Positions 1 to 26,053 of a stretch of DNA of 64,000 bases are shown piece by piece (position 1 is the stretch's first letter; every line of letters starts with the position of its first letter). The notes beneath the pieces are model-generated. The model saw only the letters and a program-made list of their open reading frames with translations. It did no database searches and was not told where the DNA came from. Made by a program: the position numbers and the translations under genes. The stretch is taken from the NCBI RefSeq assembly GCF_048403405.1, contig NZ_CP183129.1, one strand, 5' to 3'. The stretch comes from Escherichia coli (GTDB lineage Bacteria > Pseudomonadota > Gammaproteobacteria > Enterobacterales > Enterobacteriaceae).

Positions 1-1556
1 CCTGCGCCCGCGTCGCCATTAACCTTTCCTCGCCGCCGAAGCAAATCTCGGCGCTGACCACTCTGAGCCACCAGCAGGAGGCGGAAATTCGCCAGCTTGA
101 GCGCGAGCTTCGCATCGGGCTGCGTACCAACACCTCACGGATGACCGAGGTGCTGGTGCAGTACGATGAAACGCTGACGGCGCTGGATGAACTGGAAGCG
201 GCCTGGCATCAGCAGCAGGCGCTGGTCCGGGAGATTATCGCGCTGCGCCAGCAGTTGCTGGGCGTGGCAGAAGACGATGCGGCGTCGTTGCCGGACGCAG
301 ATGCCGCGGAGGATACGCCGCCAGAGTCAGAGTCAGAGTCAGAGTCAGAGTCAGAGTCAGAGTCAGAGTCAGAACAGGATAATACCGGTGCCGTACCGGC
401 TGATGAGGCCGACAGAGAACAGCCGGAAGAGACCGCTGAAACAGTTTCCCCGGTACAGCGGCTGGCCCAGCTCACTGCCGAACTGGACGCCCTGCATAAC
501 GACCGGTTGCTGGTCTCCCCGCACGTCGATAAAAAACAGATTGCGGCGGTGATTGCCGAATGGACCGGCGTGCCGCTCAACCGCCTGTCGCAGAATGAAA
601 TGTCGGTCATCACCGACCTGCCGAAATTGCTGGGCGACACCATCAAAGGCCAAGACCTGGCGATTGCCAGCCTGCATAAGCATCTACTGACCGCACGCGC
701 CGACCTGCGTCTTCCGGGACGCCCGCTCGGTGCGTTCCTGCTGGCTGGCCCCAGCGGTGTGGGTAAAACCGAAACCGTCCTGCAACTGGCAGAGCTGCTC
801 TACGGCGGTCGCCAGTACCTGACCACCATCAATATGTCCGAATTCCAGGAGAAACACACCGTCTCGCGGCTGATTGGTTCGCCTCCGGGCTACGTTGGCT
901 ACGGTGAAGGCGGCGTACTGACCGAAGCGATTCGCCAGAAACCCTACTCGGTAGTACTGCTCGATGAAGTGGAAAAAGCGCACCCGGATGTGCTCAACCT
1001 GTTCTACCAGTCGTTCGATAAGGGCGAAATGGCAGACGGTGAAGGCCGCCTGATTGACTGCAAAAATATCGTCTTCTTCCTGACGTCCAACCTCGGCTAC
1101 CAGGTAATAGTCGAGCACGCCGATGACCCGGAAACCATGCAGGAAGAACTGTATCCGGTGCTGGCCGACTTCTTCAAACCTGCCCTGCTGGCGCGTATGG
1201 AAGTGGTGCCGTATCTGCCGCTGTCGAAAGAGACGCTCGCCACCATTATCGCCGGAAAACTGGCCCGTCTGGATAACGTGCTGCGCAGTCGCTTTGGTGC
1301 AGAAGTGGTCATTGAACCGGAAGTGACGGACGAAATCATGAGCCGCGTCACCCGCGCGGAAAACGGCGCGAGGATGCTGGAATCGGTCATCGATGGCGAC
1401 ATGCTACCGCCGCTCTCGCTGCTGCTGTTGCAGAAAATGGCGGCTAACACGGCGATTGCCCGGATTCGGTTGTCGGCGGTGGACGACGCATTTACGGCAG
1501 ACGTGGAAGATGCTCAGAACGACGAGTCCGTCACAAAGGATGAAACGGTTTTATGA
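1..1556 (+). CDS. clpV: T6SS AAA+ ATPase ClpV/TssH, C-terminal ~518 codons (5' end lies outside the window)
   Basis: Reading frame is open from position 3 to the TGA at 1554-1556. Translation carries the second AAA+ module (Walker A LLAGPSGVGKTE, Walker B VVLLDEVEKAHPDV) and a Clp-type C-terminal domain. Confidence 0.85.
   Translation, partial: CARVAINLSSPPKQISALTTLSHQQEAEIRQLERELRIGLRTNTSRMTEVLVQYDETLTALDELEAAWHQQQALVREIIALRQQLLGVAEDDAASLPDADAAEDTPPESESESESESESESESEQDNTGAVPADEADREQPEETAETVSPVQRLAQLTAELDALHNDRLLVSPHVDKKQIAAVIAEWTGVPLNRLSQNEMSVITDLPKLLGDTIKGQDLAIASLHKHLLTARADLRLPGRPLGAFLLAGPSGVGKTETVLQLAELLYGGRQYLTTINMSEFQEKHTVSRLIGSPPGYVGYGEGGVLTEAIRQKPYSVVLLDEVEKAHPDVLNLFYQSFDKGEMADGEGRLIDCKNIVFFLTSNLGYQVIVEHADDPETMQEELYPVLADFFKPALLARMEVVPYLPLSKETLATIIAGKLARLDNVLRSRFGAEVVIEPEVTDEIMSRVTRAENGARMLESVIDGDMLPPLSLLLLQKMAANTAIARIRLSAVDDAFTADVEDAQNDESVTKDETVL
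324..371 (+). repeat. Perfect hexanucleotide tandem repeat (GAGTCA)x8 inside clpV, encoding (Glu-Ser)8
   Basis: Eight identical GAGTCA units read directly from the sequence, in frame with clpV and followed by GAA CAG. Confidence 0.95.
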
Positions 1557-2296
1557 GCAGGTTGCGCGTTTTCCGGCAGACAGGATGGTTTATCGCGGGC
1601 CTGATGACGGGCTTACCCGCCACTGCCGCGCCCGCAGAAACATCGTCAATGGCCGGTGTGGCGGTCGCCGTCGCCACCACGACCCCGCCGGATGCGACAG
1701 CCACGTCACAGGCCATGCAGTCCTGTCGGCGGGAGTCCGCGGCGCTGGAGCGGCTTGACTGCTATGACCGCCTGCTGGCACCGCTGTCCCCGTCAGGGTT
1801 TGACGGGGCGCTGGTCAAAGCCGGTTTTGTGGGCGAGGCCTGGACCCGCGCCACAGAGCAGGAAAAACGTCGCGAGGGCAACACCACAGAACTGCTGGTG
1901 ACGCAGGTGCCGGGGGAGCGCCCGACGGTGGTGATAACCACCCCGGCTATCGGCCATGTTCCGCCGCGCCCGGTGCTGATGTTCAGTTGCGTGGACAATA
2001 TCACCCGGATGCAGGTGGCGCTGATGCACCCTCTGGATGTCCATGATATCGCCGTCACTCTGAATGCCGACAGCCGGGCATTGCGTAGCCACTGGTTTGT
2101 GCGCGAGAACGGCACCCTGCTGGAGTCCAGCCGGGGGCTGTCCGGGATTGATGAAATTAAGCAACTGTTCGGCGCAAAAACGCTGACAGTGGATACCGGC
2201 GCAGATAACGCCGCAGGAAAGCTGACCTTTAACATTGACGGGCTGGCAAGGGCGATTGCCCCCCTGCGCGTTGCCTGCCACTGGGCGGGAGAATAA
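1553..2296 (+). CDS. T6SS-associated VasI-family protein (secreted/periplasmic, N-terminal signal peptide)
   Basis: ATG at 1553 overlaps the clpV stop (ATGA). N-terminal hydrophobic signal-like segment, then an Ala/Thr/Pro-rich tract. Position between clpV and tssA matches vasI in vas-type clusters. Family assignment is from recalled architecture, not a search. Confidence 0.55.
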   Translation: MSRLRVFRQTGWFIAGLMTGLPATAAPAETSSMAGVAVAVATTTPPDATATSQAMQSCRRESAALERLDCYDRLLAPLSPSGFDGALVKAGFVGEAWTRATEQEKRREGNTTELLVTQVPGERPTVVITTPAIGHVPPRPVLMFSCVDNITRMQVALMHPLDVHDIAVTLNADSRALRSHWFVRENGTLLESSRGLSGIDEIKQLFGAKTLTVDTGADNAAGKLTFNIDGLARAIAPLRVACHWAGE

Positions 2297-2300
2297 AAAT

Positions 2301-3713
2301 ATGGCAATGGACTTACGCGATCCGAATGTCTGGATAACGCACCTGCTGGAAAACCTGCCGGAAGAAAAACTGGCATCGGCGCTGAAAGATGACAACCCGG
2401 ACTGGGAGTATATCGACGGCGAAATCGTCAAACTGGGATCTCTGGCCCACAGTCAACTGGATATCCCGGAACTCCAGCGCCGGGGGCTGGTCATTCTGGC
2501 TTCGGAGAGTAAGGACTTTCGTCTGCTGGCGCATCTGCTGAGAACCCTGCAACACGCCGGTGATCCTCATCTCGCATTGCGCCTGCTGGCGCTGTATGTG
2601 GAGCATTACTGGTCGGTGGCTGCGCCGCAGAATATGGCACATAAAAAACGCTTTGCCAGCCAGGTCATTAAACGCTTCGAAACAGGTATTGAAGGCTTTT
2701 CACAGAACGCCGCCACAGCGCAGCGCGACGCGCTGTCAGGGGAACTGGCGAAACTGGCGCAGTGCTGGCAGTCACATAACGCCCCGGAACTGGCACTGGC
2801 TACCGATGATCTTTTTGCCCTGTACCAGCGTGCGTTTAATCGTGCGGCACCGGCTCCTGCCCCCACTCCGGCGGCCTCCGATAGTTCACGACAGACCACC
2901 GCCACGTCTGAAAGCGGCGTGACGCAACCCAGTGCTCCGGCTCCCCAAATCGCCATCGACAGTCACGACGACAAAGCCTGGCGCGACACGCTGTTAAAAG
3001 TGGCGGCTATTTTATGTGAACGCCAGCCGGACTCGCCGCAGGGCTATCGCCTGCGCCGCCATGCCCTGTGGCAATCCATCACCAGTACACCCCAGGCGGA
3101 AAGCGATGGACGTACCCCATTGGCTGCGGTCTCTGCCGATATGGTGGCGGATTACCAGTCCCGGCTTGCCAGCGCGGATATGGCGCTGTGGCAGCAGGTT
3201 GAGAAAAGCGTATTGCTGGCTCCTTACTGGCTGGACGGTCACTGTCTTTCTGCACAGACGGCACTGCGTCTGGGTTACAAACAGGTGGCAGACACCATCC
3301 GCGATGAGGTCATCCGCTTCCTTGAGCGTCTGCCCCAGCTTACCGGGCTGCTGTTTAATGACCGCACACCGTTTCTCAGTGAGCAGACGAAACAATGGCT
3401 GGCAGCTTCGCCCGACGGCAAAGTTGCACCGGTTGCGCAAATCGGTGAGGAATCGCAGGCAGCCAGAGCCTGTTTTGCTGGGCAGGGTCTGGAGGCGGCG
3501 CTGCGATATCTGGACATGCTACCCGAAGGCGATCCCCGCAATCAGTTTCACCGCCAGTACCTTGCCGCACAGTTGACGGAGGAGGCGGGGCTGATACAGC
3601 TTGCGCAGCAACAGTACCGGATGTTGTTGATGATAGGGAGTCAGATGATGGTGTCTGACTGGGAGCCATCATTACTTACGCAGCTTGAACAAAAATTCAC
3701 GGCAGAACAATAA
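2301..3713 (+). CDS. tssA: T6SS protein TssA (VasJ-like, ImpA_N-type N-terminal domain)
   Basis: ATG at 2301 just after the vasI-like stop (the tracked ORF starts further upstream at 2235). About 470 aa, lying between vasI and tssM as vasJ does. Confidence 0.7.
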   Translation: MAMDLRDPNVWITHLLENLPEEKLASALKDDNPDWEYIDGEIVKLGSLAHSQLDIPELQRRGLVILASESKDFRLLAHLLRTLQHAGDPHLALRLLALYVEHYWSVAAPQNMAHKKRFASQVIKRFETGIEGFSQNAATAQRDALSGELAKLAQCWQSHNAPELALATDDLFALYQRAFNRAAPAPAPTPAASDSSRQTTATSESGVTQPSAPAPQIAIDSHDDKAWRDTLLKVAAILCERQPDSPQGYRLRRHALWQSITSTPQAESDGRTPLAAVSADMVADYQSRLASADMALWQQVEKSVLLAPYWLDGHCLSAQTALRLGYKQVADTIRDEVIRFLERLPQLTGLLFNDRTPFLSEQTKQWLAASPDGKVAPVAQIGEESQAARACFAGQGLEAALRYLDMLPEGDPRNQFHRQYLAAQLTEEAGLIQLAQQQYRMLLMIGSQMMVSDWEPSLLTQLEQKFTAEQ

Positions 3714-3731
3714 AAGAGAACAGGAGTTTTT

Positions 3732-6700
3732 GTGTTCAGATTACCAACACCCCGACTACTCAGCGGACTCAAATCAGCCCTACGCCCGGCGATGCCCCGG
3801 TTTAAAGTCTCCGCTTTCTGGCTGCTGATACTGGCGTGGATTTTTCTGCTGGTATGGATCTGGTGGAAAGGCCCGACGTGGACGCTGTATGAAGAACAGT
3901 GGCTCAAACCACTGGCGAACCGCTGGCTGGCAACGGCGGCATGGGGGATTATCGCCCTAGTGTGGCTTACCGTCCGGATGATGAAGCGCCTGCAACAGCT
4001 TGAAAAAATGCAAAAGCAGCAGCGCGAGGAGGCCATTGATCCGCTCAGTGTGGAGCTGAACGCCCAGCAGCGTTACCTTGACCGCTGGCTGCTGCGCCTG
4101 CAACGCCATCTCGACAACCGCCGTTTCCTGTGGCAGTTGCCGTGGTATATGGTCATCGGCCCGGCGGGCAGTGGCAAAACGACACTGCTGCGCGAGGGTT
4201 TTCCGTCCGACATTATTTATGCCCCGGAGGGCGCACGCGGCGCAGAACAACGCCTGTACCTCACGCCCCATGTCGGTAAACAGGCGGTGATCTTTGATAT
4301 CGACGGCACACTCTGCGCTCCCGCTGATGCGGATATCCTGCATCGCCGTCTGTGGGAACATGCCCTCGGCTGGCTGAAAGAAAAGCGCGCGCGCCAGCCG
4401 CTGAACGGGATTATTCTGACACTCGATTTACCCGATCTGCTTACCGCAGACAAACGCCGCCGCGAACATCTGTTACAGACGCTGCGCAGCCGCTTGCAGG
4501 ATATACGCCAGCATCTTCACTGCCAGTTACCGGTTTACGTGGTACTCACCCGGCTTGATTTATTGCAGGGTTTTGCCGCCCTGTTCCAGTCACTGAACAG
4601 ACAGGATCGCGATGCAATTCTAGGGGTCACGTTCACCCGCCGCGCCCATGAAAATGATGACTGGCGAACAGAGTTGAATGCTTTCTGGCAGACATGGGTG
4701 GATCGAATGAACCTAGCGTTGCCGGATCTGATGGTCGCTCAGACTCACACCCGCGCGTCTTTATTTAGTTTTTCCCGCCAGATGCAGGGAAGCCGTGAAC
4801 CACTGGTGTCACTGCTTGAGGGTCTGCTTGACGGCGAAAATATGAACGTGATGCTGCGTGGCGTCTATCTCACCTCTTCGCTTCAGCGCGGACAGATGGA
4901 TGATATTTTCACCCAGTCTGCCGCCCGCCAATACCGGCTGGGCAATAACCCACTGGCGTCCTGGCCTCTGGTGGACACCGCACCCTATTTCACCCGTAGC
5001 CTGTTCCCGCAGGCATTACTCGCAGAGCCTAATCTGGCAACAGAAAGCCGCACCTGGCTGATGCGTTCCCGTCGCCGCCTGACGGTTTTCTCTACCACAG
5101 GAGGCGTGGCGGCACTGCTGCTCATCACCGGCTGGCATCACTATTACAACGGTAACTATCAGTCCGGCATCACCGTGCTTAAGCAGGCAAAAGCCTTTAT
5201 GGATGTACCGCCTCCGCTGGGGGAAGATGATTACGGCAACCTGCAACTGCCGCTGCTGAACCCGGTACGCGATGCCACGCTGGCCTATGGCGACTGGGGC
5301 GACCGCAGCCGTCTGGCCGATATGGGACTGTACCAGGGACGGCGTATCGGGCCTTATGTGGAACAAACCTATCTGCAACTGCTGGAGCAGCGTTACCTGC
5401 CTTCGCTGTTTAACGGGCTGGTCAAAGCGATGAACGCCGCGCCGCCGGAGAGTGAGGAAAAACTCGCCGTGCTGCGTGTGATGCGAATGCTGGAGGACAA
5501 AAGCGGACGCAATAATGAGGTGGTGAAGCAGTATATGGCAAAACGCTGGAGCGAAAAATTCCACGGCCAGCGCGATATCCAGGCACAACTGATGTCCCAT
5601 CTTGACTACGCGCTGGCTCATACTGACTGGCATGCAGAGCGTCAGGCGGGCGACGGTGATGCCATCAGCCGCTGGACGCCATATGACAAGCCTGTTGCGA
5701 CAGCACAGAAAGAACTGAGCAAACTGCCTGTCTACCAGCGAGTTTACCAGAGCCTGAAAACGCGGGCGCTGGGCGTTCTTCCTGCCGACCTCAATCTGCG
5801 TGACCAGGTAGGGCCAACTTTTGACCAGGTATTTACATCTGCCGATGATAACAAACTGGTTGTTCCACAGTTTCTTACCCGTTACGGCCTGCAAAGCTAT
5901 TTTGTAAAACAGCGCGATGAACTGGTTGAACTGACGGCGATGGATTCCTGGGTACTCAACCTCACCCGCAGCGTGAAATACAGTGACGCCGACCGCGCGG
6001 AAATCCAGCGCCAGTTGACCGAGCAGTATATCAGCGACTACACCGCCACCTGGCGGGCCGGGATGGACAATCTGAATATCCGCAATTTTGAGTCCATCGG
6101 ACAACTGACCGGGGCGCTGGAGCAGGTTATCAGCGGCGACCAGCCTTTGCAGCGGGCGCTGACCGTGCTGCGTGACAACACACAGCCAGGCGTCTTTTCT
6201 GAAAAACTCTCTGCCAAAGAGCGGGATGAGACCCTGGCAGAGCCGGATTACCAGTTACTCACCCGCCTCGGGCATGAATTCGCCCCGGAAAACAGTACCC
6301 TGACAGTACAGAAAGACAAAGAAAGCACGATGCAGGCCGTATACCAGCAGCTCACCGAGTTACACCGCTACCTGCTGGCAATCCAGAACGCGCCTGTACC
6401 AGGGAAATCGGCGCTGAAAGCCGTGCAGTTAAGGCTTGATCAGAACAGCAGCGATCCAATATTCGCCACCCGCCAGATGGCAAAAACACTGCCTGCTCCG
6501 CTCAACCGCTGGGTAGGCAGGCTGGCTGACCAGGCCTGGCATGTGGTGATGGTGGAAGCCGTTCACTATATGGAAGTGGACTGGCGCGACAGCGTGGTGA
6601 AACCGTTTAACGAGCAACTGGCAAATAACTATCCGTTTAATCCACATTCTGCACAGGATGCCTCACTGGATGCCTTCGAACGATTCTTTAAACCAGATGG

Positions 6701-7256
6701 CATACTGGATACCTTCTACCAGCAGAACCTAAAGCTGTTTATCGACAATGACCTGAGTCTGGAGGATGGCGATAACAACGTCATTATTCGCGAAGATATT
6801 ATTGCGCAACTGGAAACCGCGCAGAAAATCCGTGACATATTCTTCAGCAAACAGAACGGTCTGGGAACATCCTTTGCCGTGGAAACGGTATCGCTTTCCG
6901 GCAACAAACGCCGCAGCGTACTGAACCTTGACGGTCAGTTAGTCGATTACAGCCAGGGCCGTAACTATACCGCCCATCTGGTCTGGCCTAACAATATGCG
7001 CGAAGGCAACGAAAGCAAACTGACGCTGGTTGGTGCCCGCGGCGGCGCACCGCGCAGTATCAGCTTCAGCGGGCCGTGGGCTCAGTTCCGCCTGTTCGGG
7101 GCCGGACAGCTGACCGGAGTACAGGATGGCAACTTTACCGTGCGCTTTAGTGTGGACGGTGGCGCAATGACCTACCGCGTGCATACCGACACGGAAGATA
7201 ACCCGTTCAGCGGTGGGTTATTCAGCCAGTTTGGCCTGTCAGACACACTGTACTGA
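3732..7256 (+). CDS. tssM: T6SS membrane-complex protein TssM (IcmF/VasK family)
   Basis: GTG start at 3732 preceded by AGGAG at 3722-3726. 1174 aa with N-terminal transmembrane segments and a Walker A motif (GPAGSGKTT). Confidence 0.9.
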   Translation: MFRLPTPRLLSGLKSALRPAMPRFKVSAFWLLILAWIFLLVWIWWKGPTWTLYEEQWLKPLANRWLATAAWGIIALVWLTVRMMKRLQQLEKMQKQQREEAIDPLSVELNAQQRYLDRWLLRLQRHLDNRRFLWQLPWYMVIGPAGSGKTTLLREGFPSDIIYAPEGARGAEQRLYLTPHVGKQAVIFDIDGTLCAPADADILHRRLWEHALGWLKEKRARQPLNGIILTLDLPDLLTADKRRREHLLQTLRSRLQDIRQHLHCQLPVYVVLTRLDLLQGFAALFQSLNRQDRDAILGVTFTRRAHENDDWRTELNAFWQTWVDRMNLALPDLMVAQTHTRASLFSFSRQMQGSREPLVSLLEGLLDGENMNVMLRGVYLTSSLQRGQMDDIFTQSAARQYRLGNNPLASWPLVDTAPYFTRSLFPQALLAEPNLATESRTWLMRSRRRLTVFSTTGGVAALLLITGWHHYYNGNYQSGITVLKQAKAFMDVPPPLGEDDYGNLQLPLLNPVRDATLAYGDWGDRSRLADMGLYQGRRIGPYVEQTYLQLLEQRYLPSLFNGLVKAMNAAPPESEEKLAVLRVMRMLEDKSGRNNEVVKQYMAKRWSEKFHGQRDIQAQLMSHLDYALAHTDWHAERQAGDGDAISRWTPYDKPVATAQKELSKLPVYQRVYQSLKTRALGVLPADLNLRDQVGPTFDQVFTSADDNKLVVPQFLTRYGLQSYFVKQRDELVELTAMDSWVLNLTRSVKYSDADRAEIQRQLTEQYISDYTATWRAGMDNLNIRNFESIGQLTGALEQVISGDQPLQRALTVLRDNTQPGVFSEKLSAKERDETLAEPDYQLLTRLGHEFAPENSTLTVQKDKESTMQAVYQQLTELHRYLLAIQNAPVPGKSALKAVQLRLDQNSSDPIFATRQMAKTLPAPLNRWVGRLADQAWHVVMVEAVHYMEVDWRDSVVKPFNEQLANNYPFNPHSAQDASLDAFERFFKPDGILDTFYQQNLKLFIDNDLSLEDGDNNVIIREDIIAQLETAQKIRDIFFSKQNGLGTSFAVETVSLSGNKRRSVLNLDGQLVDYSQGRNYTAHLVWPNNMREGNESKLTLVGARGGAPRSISFSGPWAQFRLFGAGQLTGVQDGNFTVRFSVDGGAMTYRVHTDTEDNPFSGGLFSQFGLSDTLY

Positions 7257-7266
7257 GGAGGCAGGG

Positions 7267-8619
7267 ATGAATAGTAACGGACTGACACAAACTATCGTTA
7301 CCGGCAGTGACCCGCGCGGGCTGCCGGAATTCAGCGCCATCCGCGAGGAAATAAACAAAGCCAGCCATCCGTCACAGCCTGAGCTGAACTGGAAACTGGT
7401 GGAGTCGCTGGCGCTGGCGATTTTTAAAGCCAACGGTGTGGATTTACACACCGCCACCTACTATACGCTTGCCCGGACACGGACACAGGGACTGGCGGGA
7501 TTCTGCGAAGGTGCGGAACTGCTGGCGGCAATGGTAAGCCACGACTGGGATAAATTCTGGCCGCAGGGCGGTCCGGCGCGTACTGAAATGCTGGACTGGT
7601 TTAACTCCCGAACCGGCAATATTCTGCGTCAGCAAATCTCCTTTGCGGAACCCGATCTGCCACTGATCTACCGCACAGAGCGGGCATTGCAGCTTATCTG
7701 CGACAAGCTTCAGCAGGTGGAGCTGAAGCGCGTTCCGCGCGTGGAGAATCTGCTCTATTTTATGCAGAACACGCGTAAGCGGCTTGAACCCCAGCCGAAG
7801 AGTAACGTTGAAAACGCCGTACAGACCACGGTTAGAACACTGATTTATGCCCCGGAAACAACGGCTTCCTCCACGCCAGAAGCGGTAGTGCCTCCCCTGC
7901 CCGACCTGCCTGAGATGAAAGTAGAAGTGCGCAGTCTGTCAGAGAATCCCCCACAGGCCAGTGTGATGAAGCAAGGCAGTACGGTAAGAGGGTTTATCAC
8001 GGGGATCGCCTGTTCAGTGGCTGTCGCCTCAGCATTGTGGTGGTGGCAGGTCTATCCGGTGCAACAGCAACTGTTACAGGTTAACGACACCGCGCAGGGC
8101 GCAGCAACGGTGTGGATGGCCTCACCTGAACTAGAAAACTATGAGCGCAGGCTACAACAGCTTCTTGGCGTCTCCCCGGTACAACCGCTGGAAACCGGGA
8201 TGCAGATGATGCGTGTTGCCGACAGTCGCTGGCCGGAAAGCCTGCAGCAGCAGCAGGCCTCGACACATTGGAATGAAGCACTCAAAACCCGCGCACAGAG
8301 TAGCCCGCAGTTGCGTGGCTGGTTGCAGACCCGTCAGGACTTACATGCTTTTGCAGATCTCGTGATGCGGCGCGAGAAAGAGGGACTAACCCTTTCCTAT
8401 ATCAAAAATGTCATCTGGCAGGCGGAGCGGGGACTGGGGCAGGAAACACCCGTTGAGTCTCTGTTGACGCAGTACCAGGATGCCCGTGCGCAGAAGCAGA
8501 ATATAGATGCGCTGGAAAAACAAATTAATGAGCGACTCGAAGGCGTGTTAATCCGCTGGCTGCTGCTGAAGAATAACGTCATGCCAGAGGCGGCAACCGG
8601 GACCACGGCCGAAAAATAA
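7267..8619 (+). CDS. VasL-like T6SS accessory protein (ImpA_N-related N-terminus, one central transmembrane helix)
   Basis: ATG at 7267 after GAGGAGG, 10 bp after the tssM stop. Predicted TM segment ITGIACSVAVASALWWW. Position after tssM corresponds to vasL. Confidence 0.6.
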   Translation: MNSNGLTQTIVTGSDPRGLPEFSAIREEINKASHPSQPELNWKLVESLALAIFKANGVDLHTATYYTLARTRTQGLAGFCEGAELLAAMVSHDWDKFWPQGGPARTEMLDWFNSRTGNILRQQISFAEPDLPLIYRTERALQLICDKLQQVELKRVPRVENLLYFMQNTRKRLEPQPKSNVENAVQTTVRTLIYAPETTASSTPEAVVPPLPDLPEMKVEVRSLSENPPQASVMKQGSTVRGFITGIACSVAVASALWWWQVYPVQQQLLQVNDTAQGAATVWMASPELENYERRLQQLLGVSPVQPLETGMQMMRVADSRWPESLQQQQASTHWNEALKTRAQSSPQLRGWLQTRQDLHAFADLVMRREKEGLTLSYIKNVIWQAERGLGQETPVESLLTQYQDARAQKQNIDALEKQINERLEGVLIRWLLLKNNVMPEAATGTTAEK

Positions 8620-8642: not shown

Positions 8643-9125
8643 ATGGCAAATATGAGTTATTTATCTTTGAGTGGAGAGACACAAGGGCTGATTTCAGCAG
8701 GTTGCTCAACGCTTGATTCTGTCGGAAACAAAGCACAGCCAGAACATAAAGATCAGATCATGGTTTATGCGTTAATGCATTCCATCTCAAGAAGTCAAAA
8801 TGTCAATCATCATGAATTAATTATCACCAAACCGGTTGATAAATCCTCACCATTGCTGGCAAAAGCACTTAGTGACAATGAAAAAATGGTAACATGTGAA
8901 TTTATACTCTACCGAACCAGTAAAGCGGGTATTTACCAGCCTTATTATAAAATAAACCTGTCAAAAGCCCGAATATCAAGTATTGATTTTGTCACACCGC
9001 ATGCTGTCCTGGAAAAAGAACTGGAGCCACAGGAGAGAATTGCCTTTATTTATGAAGATATTTCCTGGGAGCATACGTTAGCCGGTACGAATGCAATGAG
9101 TAAATGGCAGGATCGTGTACAGTAA
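8643..9125 (+). CDS. hcp: Hcp-family T6SS tube protein (divergent, encoded in AT-rich DNA)
   Basis: 160 aa, AAGGAG RBS at 8631-8636. Length and motif pattern (SSPLL-KA, Y-I-L-A-I, IAF-YE-ISW) resemble Hcp. Confidence 0.75.
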   Translation: MANMSYLSLSGETQGLISAGCSTLDSVGNKAQPEHKDQIMVYALMHSISRSQNVNHHELIITKPVDKSSPLLAKALSDNEKMVTCEFILYRTSKAGIYQPYYKINLSKARISSIDFVTPHAVLEKELEPQERIAFIYEDISWEHTLAGTNAMSKWQDRVQ

Positions 9126-9168: not shown

Positions 9169-10083
9169 ATGGCTGGTTTAAGGAATAATAACAACACACA
9201 GAATGCACAGTGGGCTGATTATGTGGGTGACATTCTTCGGGGGGCTCAACCGATAAACCAGCTAGTACCTCAGCACCCTTATCTTAACGACGTCCCACTC
9301 ATTGATGAATTAAGGCGTCAGAACACTCATCATGTTATTCTCTTGACACTTGATGTTGCAAAAAAAATACTCAGCTCAATAACATCATTTGATTACATTC
9401 ATTTTATCACTACACATCCTTCAGGTATAAAAGATACACTCGCTTGGTTAGTTAACGCGGGTAAATTAATGACTGAGTTTGATGGAAATGGGAAAATTAT
9501 ATTTAACTTTAATACCTTAAAGTATACAAAAGCAAGTTACTTTGAAATACTTGGAGAGAAATATATAAAAATTACAACATCCAGCCCCTGGCTTTTAGAA
9601 AAGCTCGGTAAATATATTTTCTCTTCACGAGCGCCTCAAGTTCTGGAACTCGCTATTGGCTGGCGAGGAGCTTTATCTGAATCAATAAAAGGAGTTAAGT
9701 TCTGTATCTGGTTTTCAGTAGCCTGGAGAACCATAGAATTTATTATGAGTTCAGAGCGAGATCTGGTTAATTTTCTTGGTGATTTTTCAATGGATGTGGC
9801 CAAAGCAGTGATTGCAGGCGGTGTTGCAACTGCTATTGGAAGCCTGGCTTCTTTTGCCTGTCTTAGTTTTGGCCTTCCAGTAATTCTTGTAGGAGGAGCA
9901 ATTTTACTTACAGGGATAGTGTGTACAGTTGTTTTAAATGAAATCGATGCTCAATACCATTTATCAGAAAAATTAAAAGATGCAATTAGAGATGGACTAA
10001 AACGGCAACAGGAACTTGATAAATGGAAAAGGGAAAACATGACTCCATTTATGTATGTTCTTAACACTTCCCCCGTGATATGA
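9169..10083 (+). CDS. Hypothetical protein; candidate Hcp-linked T6SS effector with C-terminal glycine-zipper hydrophobic helices
   Basis: ATG at 9169 with GGAG 7 nt upstream (tracked ORF begins at a TTG at 9154). AT-rich codon usage matching hcp. C-terminal segment VAKAVIAGGVATAIGSLASFACLSFGLPVILVGGAILLTGIVCTVVL. Function is inferred from context only. Confidence 0.55.
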   Translation: MAGLRNNNNTQNAQWADYVGDILRGAQPINQLVPQHPYLNDVPLIDELRRQNTHHVILLTLDVAKKILSSITSFDYIHFITTHPSGIKDTLAWLVNAGKLMTEFDGNGKIIFNFNTLKYTKASYFEILGEKYIKITTSSPWLLEKLGKYIFSSRAPQVLELAIGWRGALSESIKGVKFCIWFSVAWRTIEFIMSSERDLVNFLGDFSMDVAKAVIAGGVATAIGSLASFACLSFGLPVILVGGAILLTGIVCTVVLNEIDAQYHLSEKLKDAIRDGLKRQQELDKWKRENMTPFMYVLNTSPVI

Positions 10084-10247
10084 GGATTAACTATGCGTTT
10101 ACATGTTAAATTGAAAGAGTTTTTTTCGATGTTTTTTATAGCCATATTATTTTTCCCTGCATTCAATGCTTCTTTATTTTTTACCGGAATTAGGTGATGC
10201 TGCCAACTTACTGATTTAGTGTATGATGGTGTTTTTGAGGTGCTCCA

Positions 10248-10523
10248 GTGGCTTCTGTTTCTATCAGCTGTCCCTCCTGTTCAGCTACTGACGGGGTGGT
10301 GCGTAACGGCAAAAGCACCGCCGGACATCAGCGCTATCTCTGCTCTCACTGCCGTAAAACATGGCAACTGCAGTTCACTTACACCGCTTCTCAACCCGGT
10401 ACGCACCAGAAAATCATTGATATGGCCATGAATGGCGTTGGATGCCGGGCAACCGCCCGCATTATGGGCGTTGGCCTCAACACGATTTTCCGCCATTTAA
10501 AAAACTCAGGCCGCAGTCGGTAA
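10248..10523 (+). CDS. insA: IS1 InsA (transposition inhibitor / N-terminal part of transposase)
   Basis: 91-aa ORF beginning [43 protein letters not shown], inside IS1. Confidence 0.9.
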
Positions 10524-10945
10524 CCTCGCGCATACAGCCGGGCAGTGACGTCATCGTCTGCGCGGAAATGGACGAACAGTGGGGATACGTCGGGGCTAAA
10601 TCGCGCCAGCGCTGGCTGTTTTACGCGTATGACAGGCTCCGGAAGACGGTTGTTGCGCACGTATTCGGTGAACGCACTCTGGCCACACTGGAGCGTCTTC
10701 TAAGCCTGCTGTCGGCCTTTGAGGTCGTGGTATGGATGACGGATGGCTGGCCGCTGTATGAATCCCGCCTGAAGGGAAAGCTGCACGTAATCAGCAAGCG
10801 TTACACTCAGCGAATTGAGCGGCATAACCTGAATCTGAGACAACATCTGGCAAGGCTGGGACGGAAGTCACTGTCGTTCTCAAAATCGGTGGAGCTGCAT
10901 GACAAGGTCATCGGGCATTATCTGAACATAAAACACTATCAGTAA
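10442..10945 (+). CDS. insB: IS1 InsB reading frame (expressed as InsAB' transposase by -1 frameshifting)
   Basis: -1 frame ORF overlapping the end of insA, translation typical of IS1 InsB ([21 protein letters not shown]...). Confidence 0.88.
10496..10505 (+). promoter_or_regulatory. IS1 programmed -1 ribosomal frameshift site TTTAAAAAAC
   Basis: A6C motif lies in the insA/insB overlap; the IS1 frameshift mechanism is established knowledge. Confidence 0.8.
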
Positions 10946-11484
10946 GTTGGAGTCATTACCCGGAATTAAACCTCTATATTCAATAATAAAAGGCTCCACG
11001 GAAATATTTTATGATTGGAGAATGTTGATTCTATGCTTCGGTTTCATATCGTTTTCCTTGTTAAATATTCATGTAATTTTACTAACAATAATAAAATCAT
11101 TCTTAATAAAAAAAACAAAGGTAATCAATTTCGCCACAGACATAACAATACAGCTAACTCTTATATTTTTACTAATAGCTATCGTAATAGCACCTTTAAT
11201 AGCTCCTTTTGTCACAGGATATGTCAATGCTAATTGTCACCCCTGCGGTAATAACACGGGGATTTTCCCAGGAGCAATCTATATTAAAAATGGCATAAAA
11301 TGTAATAATGAACATATTTCTCGCAAGGAAGATTAAGCAGTTAAATAATTAAATATTCTAAAACAAACAGTTTTTAACGCCGGATTCCATGTCCTTTCTT
11401 GCACTGTCTTTGTCAGGAACAATTTCTTATGCAAAGAATTTTGTATTATTGCCGCCAGAAATTCCTGGCGGCAGATATAATTTA

Positions 11485-12596: not shown

Positions 12597-12673
12597 TGGC
12601 GGAACGGACGGGACTCGAACCCGCGACCCCCTGCGTGACAGGCAGGTATTCTAACCGACTGAACTACCGCTCC
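12597..12673 (-). tRNA. aspV: tRNA-Asp (GTC)
   Basis: Reverse complement reads GGAGCGGTAGTTCAGTCGGTTAGAATACCTGCCTGTCACGCAGGGGGTCGCGGGTTCGAGTCCCGTCCGTTCCGCCA. Confidence 0.97.
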
Positions 12674-20820: not shown

Positions 20821-20897
20821 TGGCGGAACGGACGGGACTCGAACCCGCGACCCCCTGCGTGACAGGCAGGTATTCTAACCGACTGAACTACCGCTCC
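20821..20897 (-). tRNA. aspU: tRNA-Asp (GTC), distal tRNA of rrnH
   Basis: Same sequence as aspV, located just downstream of the 5S gene. Confidence 0.97.
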
Positions 20898-20949
20898 ACC
20901 GAATTCTTTTACAACCACCGGTTTTATGACCGGCTTACTGCTTAATTTG

Positions 20950-21069
20950 ATGCCTGGCAGTTCCCTACTCTCGCATGGGGAGACCCCACACTACCATCGG
21001 CGCTACGGCGTTTCACTTCTGAGTTCGGCATGGGGTCAGGTGGGACCACCGCGCTAAGGCCGCCAGGCA
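20950..21069 (-). rRNA. rrfH: 5S ribosomal RNA
   Basis: Reverse complement matches E. coli 5S rRNA (TGCCTGGCGGCC...GGGAACTGCCAGGCAT). Confidence 0.95.
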
Positions 21070-21163
21070 AATTCTGTTTTATTAACCCGCTTACCGCCGG
21101 TTAATTTAATCTGTATCAGGCTGAAAATCTTTCTCTCATCCGCCAAAACATCTTCGGCGTTGT

Positions 21164-24065
<2,902 letters not shown>

Positions 24066-24248
24066 TCACAACCCGAAGATGTTTCTTTCGATTCATCATC
24101 GTGTTGCGAAAATTTGAGAGACTCACGAACAACTTTCGTTGTTCAGTGTTTCAATTTTCAGCTTGATCCAGATTTTTAAAGAGCAAAACTTCGCAGTGAA
24201 CCTTTGCAGGTACACTCTGAAGTATTTTTTATTTAATCACTACAGAGA

Positions 24249-24324
24249 TGGTGGAGCTATGCGGGATCGAACCGCAGACCTCCTGCGTGCAAAGCAGGCG
24301 CTCTCCCAGCTGAGCTATAGCCCC
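24249..24324 (-). tRNA. alaV: tRNA-Ala (TGC), spacer tRNA
   Basis: Reverse complement reads GGGGCTATAGCTCAGCTGGGAGAGCGCCTGCTTTGCACGCAGGAGGTCTGCGGTTCGATCCCGCATAGCTCCACCA. Confidence 0.97.
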
Positions 24325-24366
24325 ATAACATGTAGTTAAAACCTCTTCAAATTTGCGGTGCAAATT

Positions 24367-24443
<77 letters not shown>

Positions 24444-24511
24444 GTAGAGGTTTTACTGCTCATTTTCATCAGACAATCTGTGTGAGCACTGCAAAGCACA
24501 GTTCTTTAAGG

Positions 24512-26053
<1,542 letters not shown>

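What the first reader, a model, noticed from the sequence alone, without database searches (positions are those of the whole stretch)
2301..8619. Two ImpA_N-type proteins flank tssM, one soluble and one membrane-anchored
The TssA-like protein (2301-3713) and the VasL-like protein (7267-8619, with a central TM helix) both show ImpA_N-like N-termini. TssA paralogues with a membrane anchor have been proposed to stabilise the distal end of the sheath, so the pairing suggests division of labour between a cap and an anchor protein.
Basis: partly seen in the sequence, partly recalled or inferred. Interest (0 to 1): 0.35.

Follow-up and report, generated by a model that had tools for sequence, protein, structure and literature searches.

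The report
E. coli T6SS TssA cap, TagA anchor

Summary
The window is Escherichia coli chromosome, covering the aspV-linked type VI secretion cluster. It is 100% identical to several sequenced strains, and at least 80% of the stretch is found in 2754 of 5426 complete E. coli genomes.

- **TssA (2301-3713):** a soluble long TssA with ImpA_N and VasJ domains. TIGR03362 scores 498 bits, and the solved Aeromonas hydrophila TssA matches at E=1e-79.

It is supported here by homology, but nothing was tested on this protein. The finding is already known and of low interest.

One question remains open: which side of the membrane holds the VasL domain. The sequence favours N-in/C-out.

The parts
1..1556 (+). 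3' part of tssH/clpV (the gene starts upstream of the window)
   Evidence: TIGR03345 VI_ClpV1 508 bits, matching model positions 461-851. The identical strain MS 69-1 has the full 2802-nt tssH.
1553..2296 (+). vasI (T6SS-associated protein)
   Evidence: PF11319 VasI 178.6 bits; TIGR03360 256 bits.
2301..3713 (+). tssA, long form (470 aa), soluble
   Evidence: TIGR03362 498.4 bits (cut-off 230). PDB 6g7b A. hydrophila TssA E=1e-79; 6riu V. cholerae TssA E=5e-62. WEP motif at residues 454-456. No hydrophobic segment.
2379..2636 (+). ImpA_N region of TssA (aa 27-112)
   Evidence: PF06812 31.3 bits, E=2.5e-7, gathering cut-off 26.9.
2967..3695 (+). VasJ region of TssA (aa 223-465: Nt2 plus C-terminal oligomerisation domain)
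   Evidence: PF16989 236.1 bits. 6g7c Nt2-CTD of A. hydrophila TssA E=8.7e-62.
3822..7256 (+). tssM (inner-membrane core subunit). The longest ORF starts at GTG 3732; the RefSeq start is 3822.
   Evidence: TIGR03348 946.8 bits; the alignment begins at residue 32 of the 3732-start version, which favours 3822. Hydrophobic helices at residues 1-19, 36-54 and 420-438.
7267..8619 (+). tagA/vasL (450 aa): ImpA_N, linker, hydrophobic helix, VasL domain
   Evidence: PF06812 72.1 bits and PF12486 78.5 bits. 28% identity, E=1e-51, end to end with the ImpA_N+VasL ORF of the EAEC 042 Sci-1 cluster, taken to be TagA.
7297..7809 (+). TssA-Nt1-like N-terminal domain of TagA (aa 11-181; Pfam ImpA_N core aa 12-113)
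7810..7980 (+). predicted disordered linker of TagA (aa 182-238), Pro/Ser/Thr-rich
   Evidence: pLDDT below 50 over 186-238, no secondary structure. Poorly conserved in the family alignment.
7990..8052 (+). hydrophobic helix of TagA (aa 242-262, GFITGIACSVAVASALWWWQV), putative membrane anchor
   Evidence: KD19 1.56; Eisenberg <H> 0.68, muH 0.10. Conserved position in 49 of 50 homologues. K+R bias 2.92 on the N-terminal side against 1.28 on the C-terminal side. Part of AF2 helix 239-273.
8140..8568 (+). VasL domain of TagA (aa 292-434), all-helical, function unknown
8643..9125 (+). hcp (tube protein), 23 nt downstream of tagA
   Evidence: TIGR03344 204.5 bits; PF05638 83.7 bits.

Best explanation
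This is the distal part of the aspV-linked type VI secretion cluster of E. coli. Its gene order is clpV-vasI-tssA-tssM-tagA(vasL)-hcp.

TssA (470 aa) is a soluble long-form TssA. Its C-terminal VasJ region forms a ring. The ring first sits on the membrane complex and baseplate, then rides on the distal end of the growing sheath-tube and promotes polymerisation.

The VasL protein (450 aa) is the TagA/TsmA partner. It has the same N-terminal (Nt1/ImpA_N) fold, a flexible linker, one hydrophobic helix that ties it to the inner membrane, and a helical VasL domain. [quoted passage not shown] It stops polymerisation and holds the sheath extended until it fires. TssM, encoded between the two genes, also binds TssA and takes part in this control.

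Shown here: domain content, fold, homology, hydrophobic helix, synteny, and co-occurrence with long TssA. Inferred from characterised homologues: localisation, the TssA-TagA contact, and the stop-and-hold activity.
For: Domains and equivalog scores. TssA matches the solved A. hydrophila TssA at 1e-79 and the V. cholerae TssA at 5e-62, and it carries the WEP motif (motif described in PMC6232143).

The VasL protein aligns end to end with the EAEC 042 ORF taken to be TagA (E=1e-51), with the hydrophobic helix in register. That ORF has the same Pfam pair. The hydrophobic helix is conserved across the family and is TM-type, not amphipathic.

A long TssA (ImpA_N+VasJ) co-occurs with the VasL protein in every locus that has enough context: the window, L003 Moellerella, L007 Hafnia, L005 Providencia, L008, L009 Erwinia and EAEC 042.

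Genes are co-oriented with short gaps of 10 to 108 nt.

Published function of the homologues: PMC6745524, PMC7545191, PMC6450956, PMC7896307.
Against: - Nothing was measured on this protein pair.
- Identity to the characterised EAEC TagA is only 28%. The V. cholerae TagA sequence could not be compared directly.
- The hydrophobic helix of this particular protein is borderline on Kyte-Doolittle (1.56).
- PMC7545191 reports that sheath termination does not strictly depend on the distal TssA-TagA contact, and that TagA also inhibits initiation. The simple anchor picture is therefore incomplete.
- The function of the VasL domain is unknown.
Confidence: 0.85

Rival explanations
1. TagA here is a true bitopic inner-membrane protein (N-in/C-out). 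Its VasL domain lies in the periplasm, where it contacts the cell wall or the periplasmic part of TssM. Only the N-terminal domain meets TssA and the sheath.
For: There is a single, uniformly hydrophobic helix of about 21 residues with a very low hydrophobic moment. K+R is enriched on its N-terminal side in 40 of 50 homologues, 2.92 against 1.28. AF2 shows a long continuous helix 239-273 between the linker and the VasL domain. PMC6745524 describes a 'transmembrane region' for this class.
Against: The literature calls EAEC TagA 'membrane-associated' (PMC6450956). From my memory of Santin et al. 2018 (not held), it is described as cytosolic and tightly bound to the membrane. [quoted passage not shown] No topology predictor or experiment was available here.
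Confidence: 0.2
2. The main role of the VasL protein is to regulate initiation. Together with TssM it acts as an inhibitor or promiscuous chaperone that titrates TssA and baseplate parts. Distal anchoring is secondary.
For: In V. cholerae, overproduced TagA blocks sheath assembly (PMC6745524). Deleting tagA partly restores assembly in a tssA mutant, and TagA binds Hcp, VgrG, TssE/F and TssL/M (PMC7545191). The gene lies directly after tssM.
Against: The same papers, and PMC6450956, show distal-end foci, over-long bent sheaths and loss of the waiting phase in tagA mutants. The two roles are not exclusive.
Confidence: 0.25
3. The hydrophobic segment is not a membrane anchor. It is a buried or oligomerisation helix of a soluble protein.
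For: KD19 of 1.56 is just under the classical threshold in this protein. V. cholerae TagA forms hexameric foci (PMC6745524).
Against: 42 of 50 homologues exceed 1.6, with values up to 2.6. The segment matches a TssM TM helix on the same crude scale. Homologues localise to the membrane in vivo.
Confidence: 0.07
4. The second ImpA_N protein is a redundant TssA duplicate that can itself cap the sheath.
For: It shares the N-terminal fold.
Against: Similarity ends at about residue 181. There is no VasJ/Nt2/CTD ring-forming region and no WEP motif. TIGR03362 scores only 83 bits against a cut-off of 230.
Confidence: 0.03

Closest known systems
TagA of enteroaggregative E. coli 042 Sci-1 (the ImpA_N+VasL ORF at L011 11071-12438; EC042_4550 from memory), characterised by Santin et al. 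2018
   Same: Same length (450 against 455 aa). Same order of ImpA_N, linker, hydrophobic helix and VasL domain. Alignable end to end at 28% identity, E=1e-51, with the hydrophobic helix in register. Encoded in a T6SS cluster together with a long TssA.
   Different: Different T6SS lineage and gene order. In Sci-1, tagA lies several kb downstream of tssE, after unrelated genes, and does not abut tssM. The partner TssA differs too: 470 aa of the Aeromonas/Vibrio type here, against the 532-aa EAEC type with a C-terminal extension. Sequence divergence is 72%.
V. cholerae TssA (VCA0119/VasJ) and TagA (VCA0121/VasL), the two ImpA_N proteins of that cluster
   Same: V. cholerae has the same pair of ImpA_N proteins. 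From memory of the locus tags, it also has the same local order vasI-vasJ-vasK-vasL. The window's TssA matches the solved V. cholerae TssA (6riu) at E=5e-62. The window's VasL protein matches the Pfam VasL family over the whole model. Published roles are class A cap and class B membrane stopper/anchor (PMC6745524, PMC7545191).
   Different: The E. coli cluster lacks the sigma-54 activator vasH between clpV and vasI (it is present in Hafnia L007). V. cholerae TagA is only 19.3% identical to EAEC TagA.
Aeromonas hydrophila TssA (AHA1844; TssA2^A sub-clade; PDB 6g7b, 6g7c)
   Same: This is the best solved relative of the window's TssA: E=1e-79 over residues 9-368 and 8.7e-62 over 213-464. It has the same three-domain plan and the same WEP motif.
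   Different: Different genus. The five-fold (decameric) symmetry reported for the Aeromonas CTD cannot be checked for the E. coli protein with these tools.
Short TssA (P. aeruginosa TssA1, B. cenocepacia TssA; class C/TsaB) with TagB/TagJ partners
   Different: No VasJ or VasL region. These proteins act at the baseplate and are not paired with a TagA anchor (PMC7896307). The window's system is not of this kind.

Membership tests
Long TssA (class A / TsaC; TssA2^A sub-clade) | N-terminal ImpA_N (PF06812) region | tested here: met
   31.3 bits, E=2.5e-7, cut-off 26.9. Residues 9-368 align to A. hydrophila TssA Nt1-Nt2 at E=1e-79.
Long TssA (class A / TsaC; TssA2^A sub-clade) | C-terminal VasJ region (Nt2 + CTD) with the conserved WEP motif | tested here: met
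   PF16989 236.1 bits. 6g7c E=8.7e-62. WEP at 454-456 (motif defined in PMC6232143).
Long TssA (class A / TsaC; TssA2^A sub-clade) | Reaches the NCBIfam equivalog cut-off for TssA | tested here: met
   TIGR03362 498.4 bits against 230.1.
Long TssA (class A / TsaC; TssA2^A sub-clade) | Soluble, with no membrane segment | tested here: met
   Best KD19 window 0.92; best simple-sum dG +8.95.
Long TssA (class A / TsaC; TssA2^A sub-clade) | Forms a ring oligomer that tracks the distal sheath end | not testable with these tools
   Known for homologues only (PMC6745524, PMC6232143).
TagA / TsmA (class B ImpA_N proteins) | N-terminal ImpA_N / TssA Nt1 fold | tested here: met
TagA / TsmA (class B ImpA_N proteins) | Hydrophobic/transmembrane region after the ImpA_N domain | tested here: met
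   Residues 242-262: KD19 1.56, Eisenberg <H> 0.68, muH 0.10. Conserved in 49 of 50 homologues. Whether it spans the membrane was not tested.
TagA / TsmA (class B ImpA_N proteins) | C-terminal VasL domain (PF12486) | tested here: met
   78.5 bits, E=6.6e-22, model positions 1-146 of 147.
TagA / TsmA (class B ImpA_N proteins) | Full-length similarity to an experimentally characterised TagA | tested here: met
   EAEC 042 ORF taken to be TagA: 28% identity over 449 columns, E=1e-51. V. cholerae TagA was not compared because the sequence is not held.
TagA / TsmA (class B ImpA_N proteins) | Encoded in a T6SS cluster together with a long TssA | tested here: met
   True for the window and for 6 related loci with enough context. 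This is the general pattern described in PMC7896307.
TagA / TsmA (class B ImpA_N proteins) | Localises to the membrane, binds TssA, and stops and holds the sheath | not testable with these tools
   Shown for the EAEC and V. cholerae proteins only.

The most novel reading that the evidence does not exclude
The hydrophobic helix is a genuine N-in/C-out transmembrane span, so the conserved VasL domain is periplasmic. TagA would then be a trans-membrane clamp that couples the cytoplasmic distal sheath end to something in the envelope, such as the periplasmic domain of TssM or the cell wall. The literature instead describes a cytosolic protein stuck to the membrane. The new reading would also give the uncharacterised VasL domain a function.
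Probability: 0.2. Interest if true: 0.4.

Novelty: already known. Interest (0 to 1): 0.08.

Why it matters
It matters little beyond correct annotation. RefSeq names the gene only 'VasL domain-containing protein', and it can be named tagA. The pairing of a long TssA with a TagA anchor predicts a 'slow', long-residence T6SS (PMC7896307). That is relevant to how this very common E. coli T6SS-1 behaves in gut competition. The membrane topology and function of the VasL domain are still unresolved, and this widespread E. coli protein would be a convenient model for settling them.

Tried and rejected
- **Direct BLASTP of TssA against the VasL protein** was not significant (E=0.29).
- **Family profile against the single TssA sequence** was weak (E=0.027, probability 1.8%). 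A TssA alignment built from neighbouring genes of distant VasL homologues was needed to show the homology.
- **The afdb50 library** was not available. No structural comparison with predicted V. cholerae or EAEC TagA models was therefore possible.
- **Santin et al. 2018**, the primary TagA paper, is not held. Its content is cited only through other papers or marked as memory.
- **L009** was tested as a possible E. coli Sci-1 locus. It gave no match in E. coli and turned out to be Erwinia typographi. EAEC 042 was then fetched directly by accession.
- **A paper search for VasL in E. coli** found nothing on this cluster. The one hit I opened was a mislabelled effector.
- **A search for ykfM with T6SS** found nothing.
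- **The redundant-duplicate idea**, that the second ImpA_N protein is a spare TssA, was also rejected (see rivals).

Full report
**What is there.** ORF listing and translation show co-oriented genes on the + strand:
- 1-1556: 3' part of clpV/tssH
- 1553-2296: vasI
- 2301-3713: 470 aa, ATG preceded by GGGAGAA
- 3732/3822-7256: tssM
- 7267-8619: 450 aa, ATG preceded by GAGGAGG
- 8643-9125: hcp

The stretch 2301-8619 is 100% identical to several E. coli chromosomes, for example TUM14771 and MS 69-1. At least 80% of it is found in 2754 of 5426 complete E. coli genomes. They lie inside a complete T6SS cluster (tssB, C, E, F, G, tagH, tssJ, K, L, H, vasI, tssA, tssM, vasL, hcp) that ends at tRNA-Asp (aspV). 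The T6SS core has 55-61% G+C against about 43% for the cargo region downstream.

**Checking the observation.** Pfam scores for protein 1 are ImpA_N 31.3 bits (cut-off 26.9) and T6SS_VasJ 236.1 bits. For protein 2 they are ImpA_N 72.1 bits and VasL 78.5 bits. In NCBIfam, protein 1 reaches the TssA equivalog TIGR03362 at 498 bits (cut-off 230). Protein 2 touches the same model only over its N-terminal 200 residues (83 bits).

The two proteins are too diverged for BLASTP (E=0.29). I collected 49 full-length homologues of protein 2 (23-76% identity to it) from the representative library. I also collected four TssA sequences from the neighbourhoods of those homologues. Profile against profile gives 98% probability and E=1.6e-13 over 160 columns. 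This aligns VasL residues 11-181 with TssA residues 24-190. The similarity stops there.

An AlphaFold2 model of protein 2 has mean pLDDT 83. Its parts are:
- a very confident helical N-domain (10-175, pLDDT above 95)
- a disordered linker (182-238)
- a long helix (239-273)
- an all-helical C-domain (276-435, pLDDT about 90)

**The hydrophobic segment.** Residues 242-262 (GFITGIACSVAVASALWWWQV) give a Kyte-Doolittle 19-residue maximum of 1.56, just below the classical 1.6. TssA peaks at 0.92. In the family alignment, 49 of 50 proteins have their most hydrophobic window at this aligned position, and 42 of 50 reach 1.6 or more, up to 2.6. On the Eisenberg scale the segment is TM-type (<H> 0.68) with almost no amphipathic moment (0.10). 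No family member falls in the 'surface-seeking' region. On a crude Hessa-type sum, with scale values recalled from memory, it scores 2.2, comparable to a TssM transmembrane helix at 1.73. Lys+Arg are enriched on the N-terminal side (2.92 against 1.28 per 15 residues; 40 of 50 sequences). For a single span this predicts N-in/C-out. So 'membrane-anchored' is well supported as a sequence feature. Whether the helix actually spans the bilayer was not tested.

**What the two proteins are.** Protein 1 matches solved long TssA proteins:
- Aeromonas hydrophila TssA Nt1-Nt2 (6g7b), E=1e-79
- A. hydrophila TssA Nt2-CTD (6g7c), E=8.7e-62
- V. cholerae TssA (6riu), E=5e-62
- more distantly, EAEC TssA (6rju, 4yo3)

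It carries the WEP motif (454-456) that Dix et al. describe at the CTD dimer interface of this clade (PMC6232143).

For protein 2, I fetched the EAEC 042 Sci-1 cluster. I translated its only ImpA_N+VasL ORF, L011 11071-12438. It is 455 codons with no stops and has the same Pfam pair. I take this ORF to be the TagA characterised by Santin et al.; the locus tag EC042_4550 is from memory. The window's protein aligns with it end to end at 28% identity, E=1e-51, with the hydrophobic helices in register.

**Synteny elsewhere.** Distant homologues of protein 2 come from Moellerella, Hafnia, Erwinia and Providencia. They occur in two arrangements:
- The window's order, clpV-(vasH)-vasI-tssA-tssM-vasL-hcp/vgrG, in L003 and L007.
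- The Sci-1 order, tssM-tssA-tssF-tssG-tssJ-tssE-...-vasL, in L005, L008, L009 and EAEC 042.

In every locus with enough context, the VasL protein co-occurs with a TssA of the ImpA_N+VasJ type. Flanking tssM is therefore a property of one lineage. The pairing itself is general, as already reported for T6SS phylogenetic groups 1 and 2 (PMC7896307).

**How it most likely works.** The mechanism is taken from characterised homologues and is inferred for this locus. All TssA-like proteins share ImpA_N, and their role is set by the C-terminus. [quoted passage not shown] Class B (ImpA_N plus a hydrophobic region and a VasL domain; EAEC TagA, V. cholerae VCA0121) sits at the membrane. It appears at the distal end when the sheath reaches the opposite side, prevents over-polymerisation and bending, and keeps the sheath extended (PMC6745524). 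In EAEC, TssM and TagA both recruit TssA to the envelope, and a tagA deletion gives sliding, over-long sheaths without a waiting phase (PMC6450956). In V. cholerae, TssA, TssM and TagA jointly control initiation and termination, and TagA binds many T6SS parts (PMC7545191).

**What remains open.** The VasL domain has no known function and no informative structural relative. From sequence alone, the helix looks like a bitopic N-in/C-out anchor, which would put the VasL domain in the periplasm. The literature I could read calls TagA 'membrane-associated' or speaks of a 'transmembrane region'. [quoted passage not shown] I give the periplasmic reading about 0.2.

**Novelty and verdict.**
- The feature is already known: a textbook TssA/TagA pair in a cluster present in about half of complete E. 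coli genomes and annotated as such in RefSeq.
- Interest is low.

Noticed in passing
window 10193-10967: An IS1 element (insA 10248-10523, insB 10442-10945) is inserted into the ykfM-like gene with a target duplication of about 8 bp (CGGAATTA). ykfM is intact in the otherwise identical strain MS 69-1 (L001 27793-28260). The remnant ORF is at 10947-11336.
   Followed up: partly
window 9169-10083 (+): A 304-aa protein directly after hcp has no Pfam, NCBIfam or PDB match. Its C-terminal ~90 residues are very hydrophobic and Gly-rich. It sits in a low-GC (43%) cargo region between the T6SS core and aspV. It is a candidate Hcp-linked membrane-targeting effector, with the downstream small membrane protein YkfM as possible immunity. 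That gene is the one broken by IS1 in this strain. No literature links ykfM to T6SS.
   Followed up: partly
L011 11071-12438 (E. coli 042, NC_017626.1 4884070-4885437): RefSeq annotates the tagA region of EAEC 042 as three incomplete pseudogene fragments (ImpA_N, 'POTRA', VasL). Yet the stretch translates as one uninterrupted 455-codon ORF with both Pfam domains. This looks like an annotation artefact.
   Followed up: partly
window 3732-3822: The longest tssM ORF starts at GTG 3732, but RefSeq uses 3822. The TIGR03348 alignment begins at residue 32 of the long version, which favours 3822. That leaves a 108-nt gap after tssA.
   Followed up: partly
protein hits P0079, P0003, P0102: Some E. coli relatives of the VasL protein are recorded as N-terminally truncated forms lacking ImpA_N (362 aa; 46 member sequences on 83 contigs). 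Others appear as fusions carrying TssF or Hcp domains (629 and 618 aa). These are probably frameshifts or gene-calling artefacts, or decay of tagA in some lineages.
   Followed up: no
L007 3824-5257 (Hafnia-like contig): tssA is called as two ORFs, ImpA_N (141 aa) and VasJ (288 aa), separated by about 140 nt. This is either a split TssA or a frameshift.
   Followed up: no
L009 1494-10398 (Erwinia typographi): One Sci-1-type cluster encodes three ImpA_N proteins: a long TssA (527 aa), an extra 371-aa protein with ImpA_N only, and the VasL protein (465 aa).
   Followed up: no
window 12597-12673, 20821-26053, 58856-58965, 59804-59890 (all - strand): tRNA-Asp (aspV) marks the end of the island. 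Further along are a complete rrn operon with tRNA-Ile, tRNA-Ala and a second tRNA-Asp, and Rfam matches to CssrA and t44 sRNAs. This is ordinary E. coli core genome.
   Followed up: no
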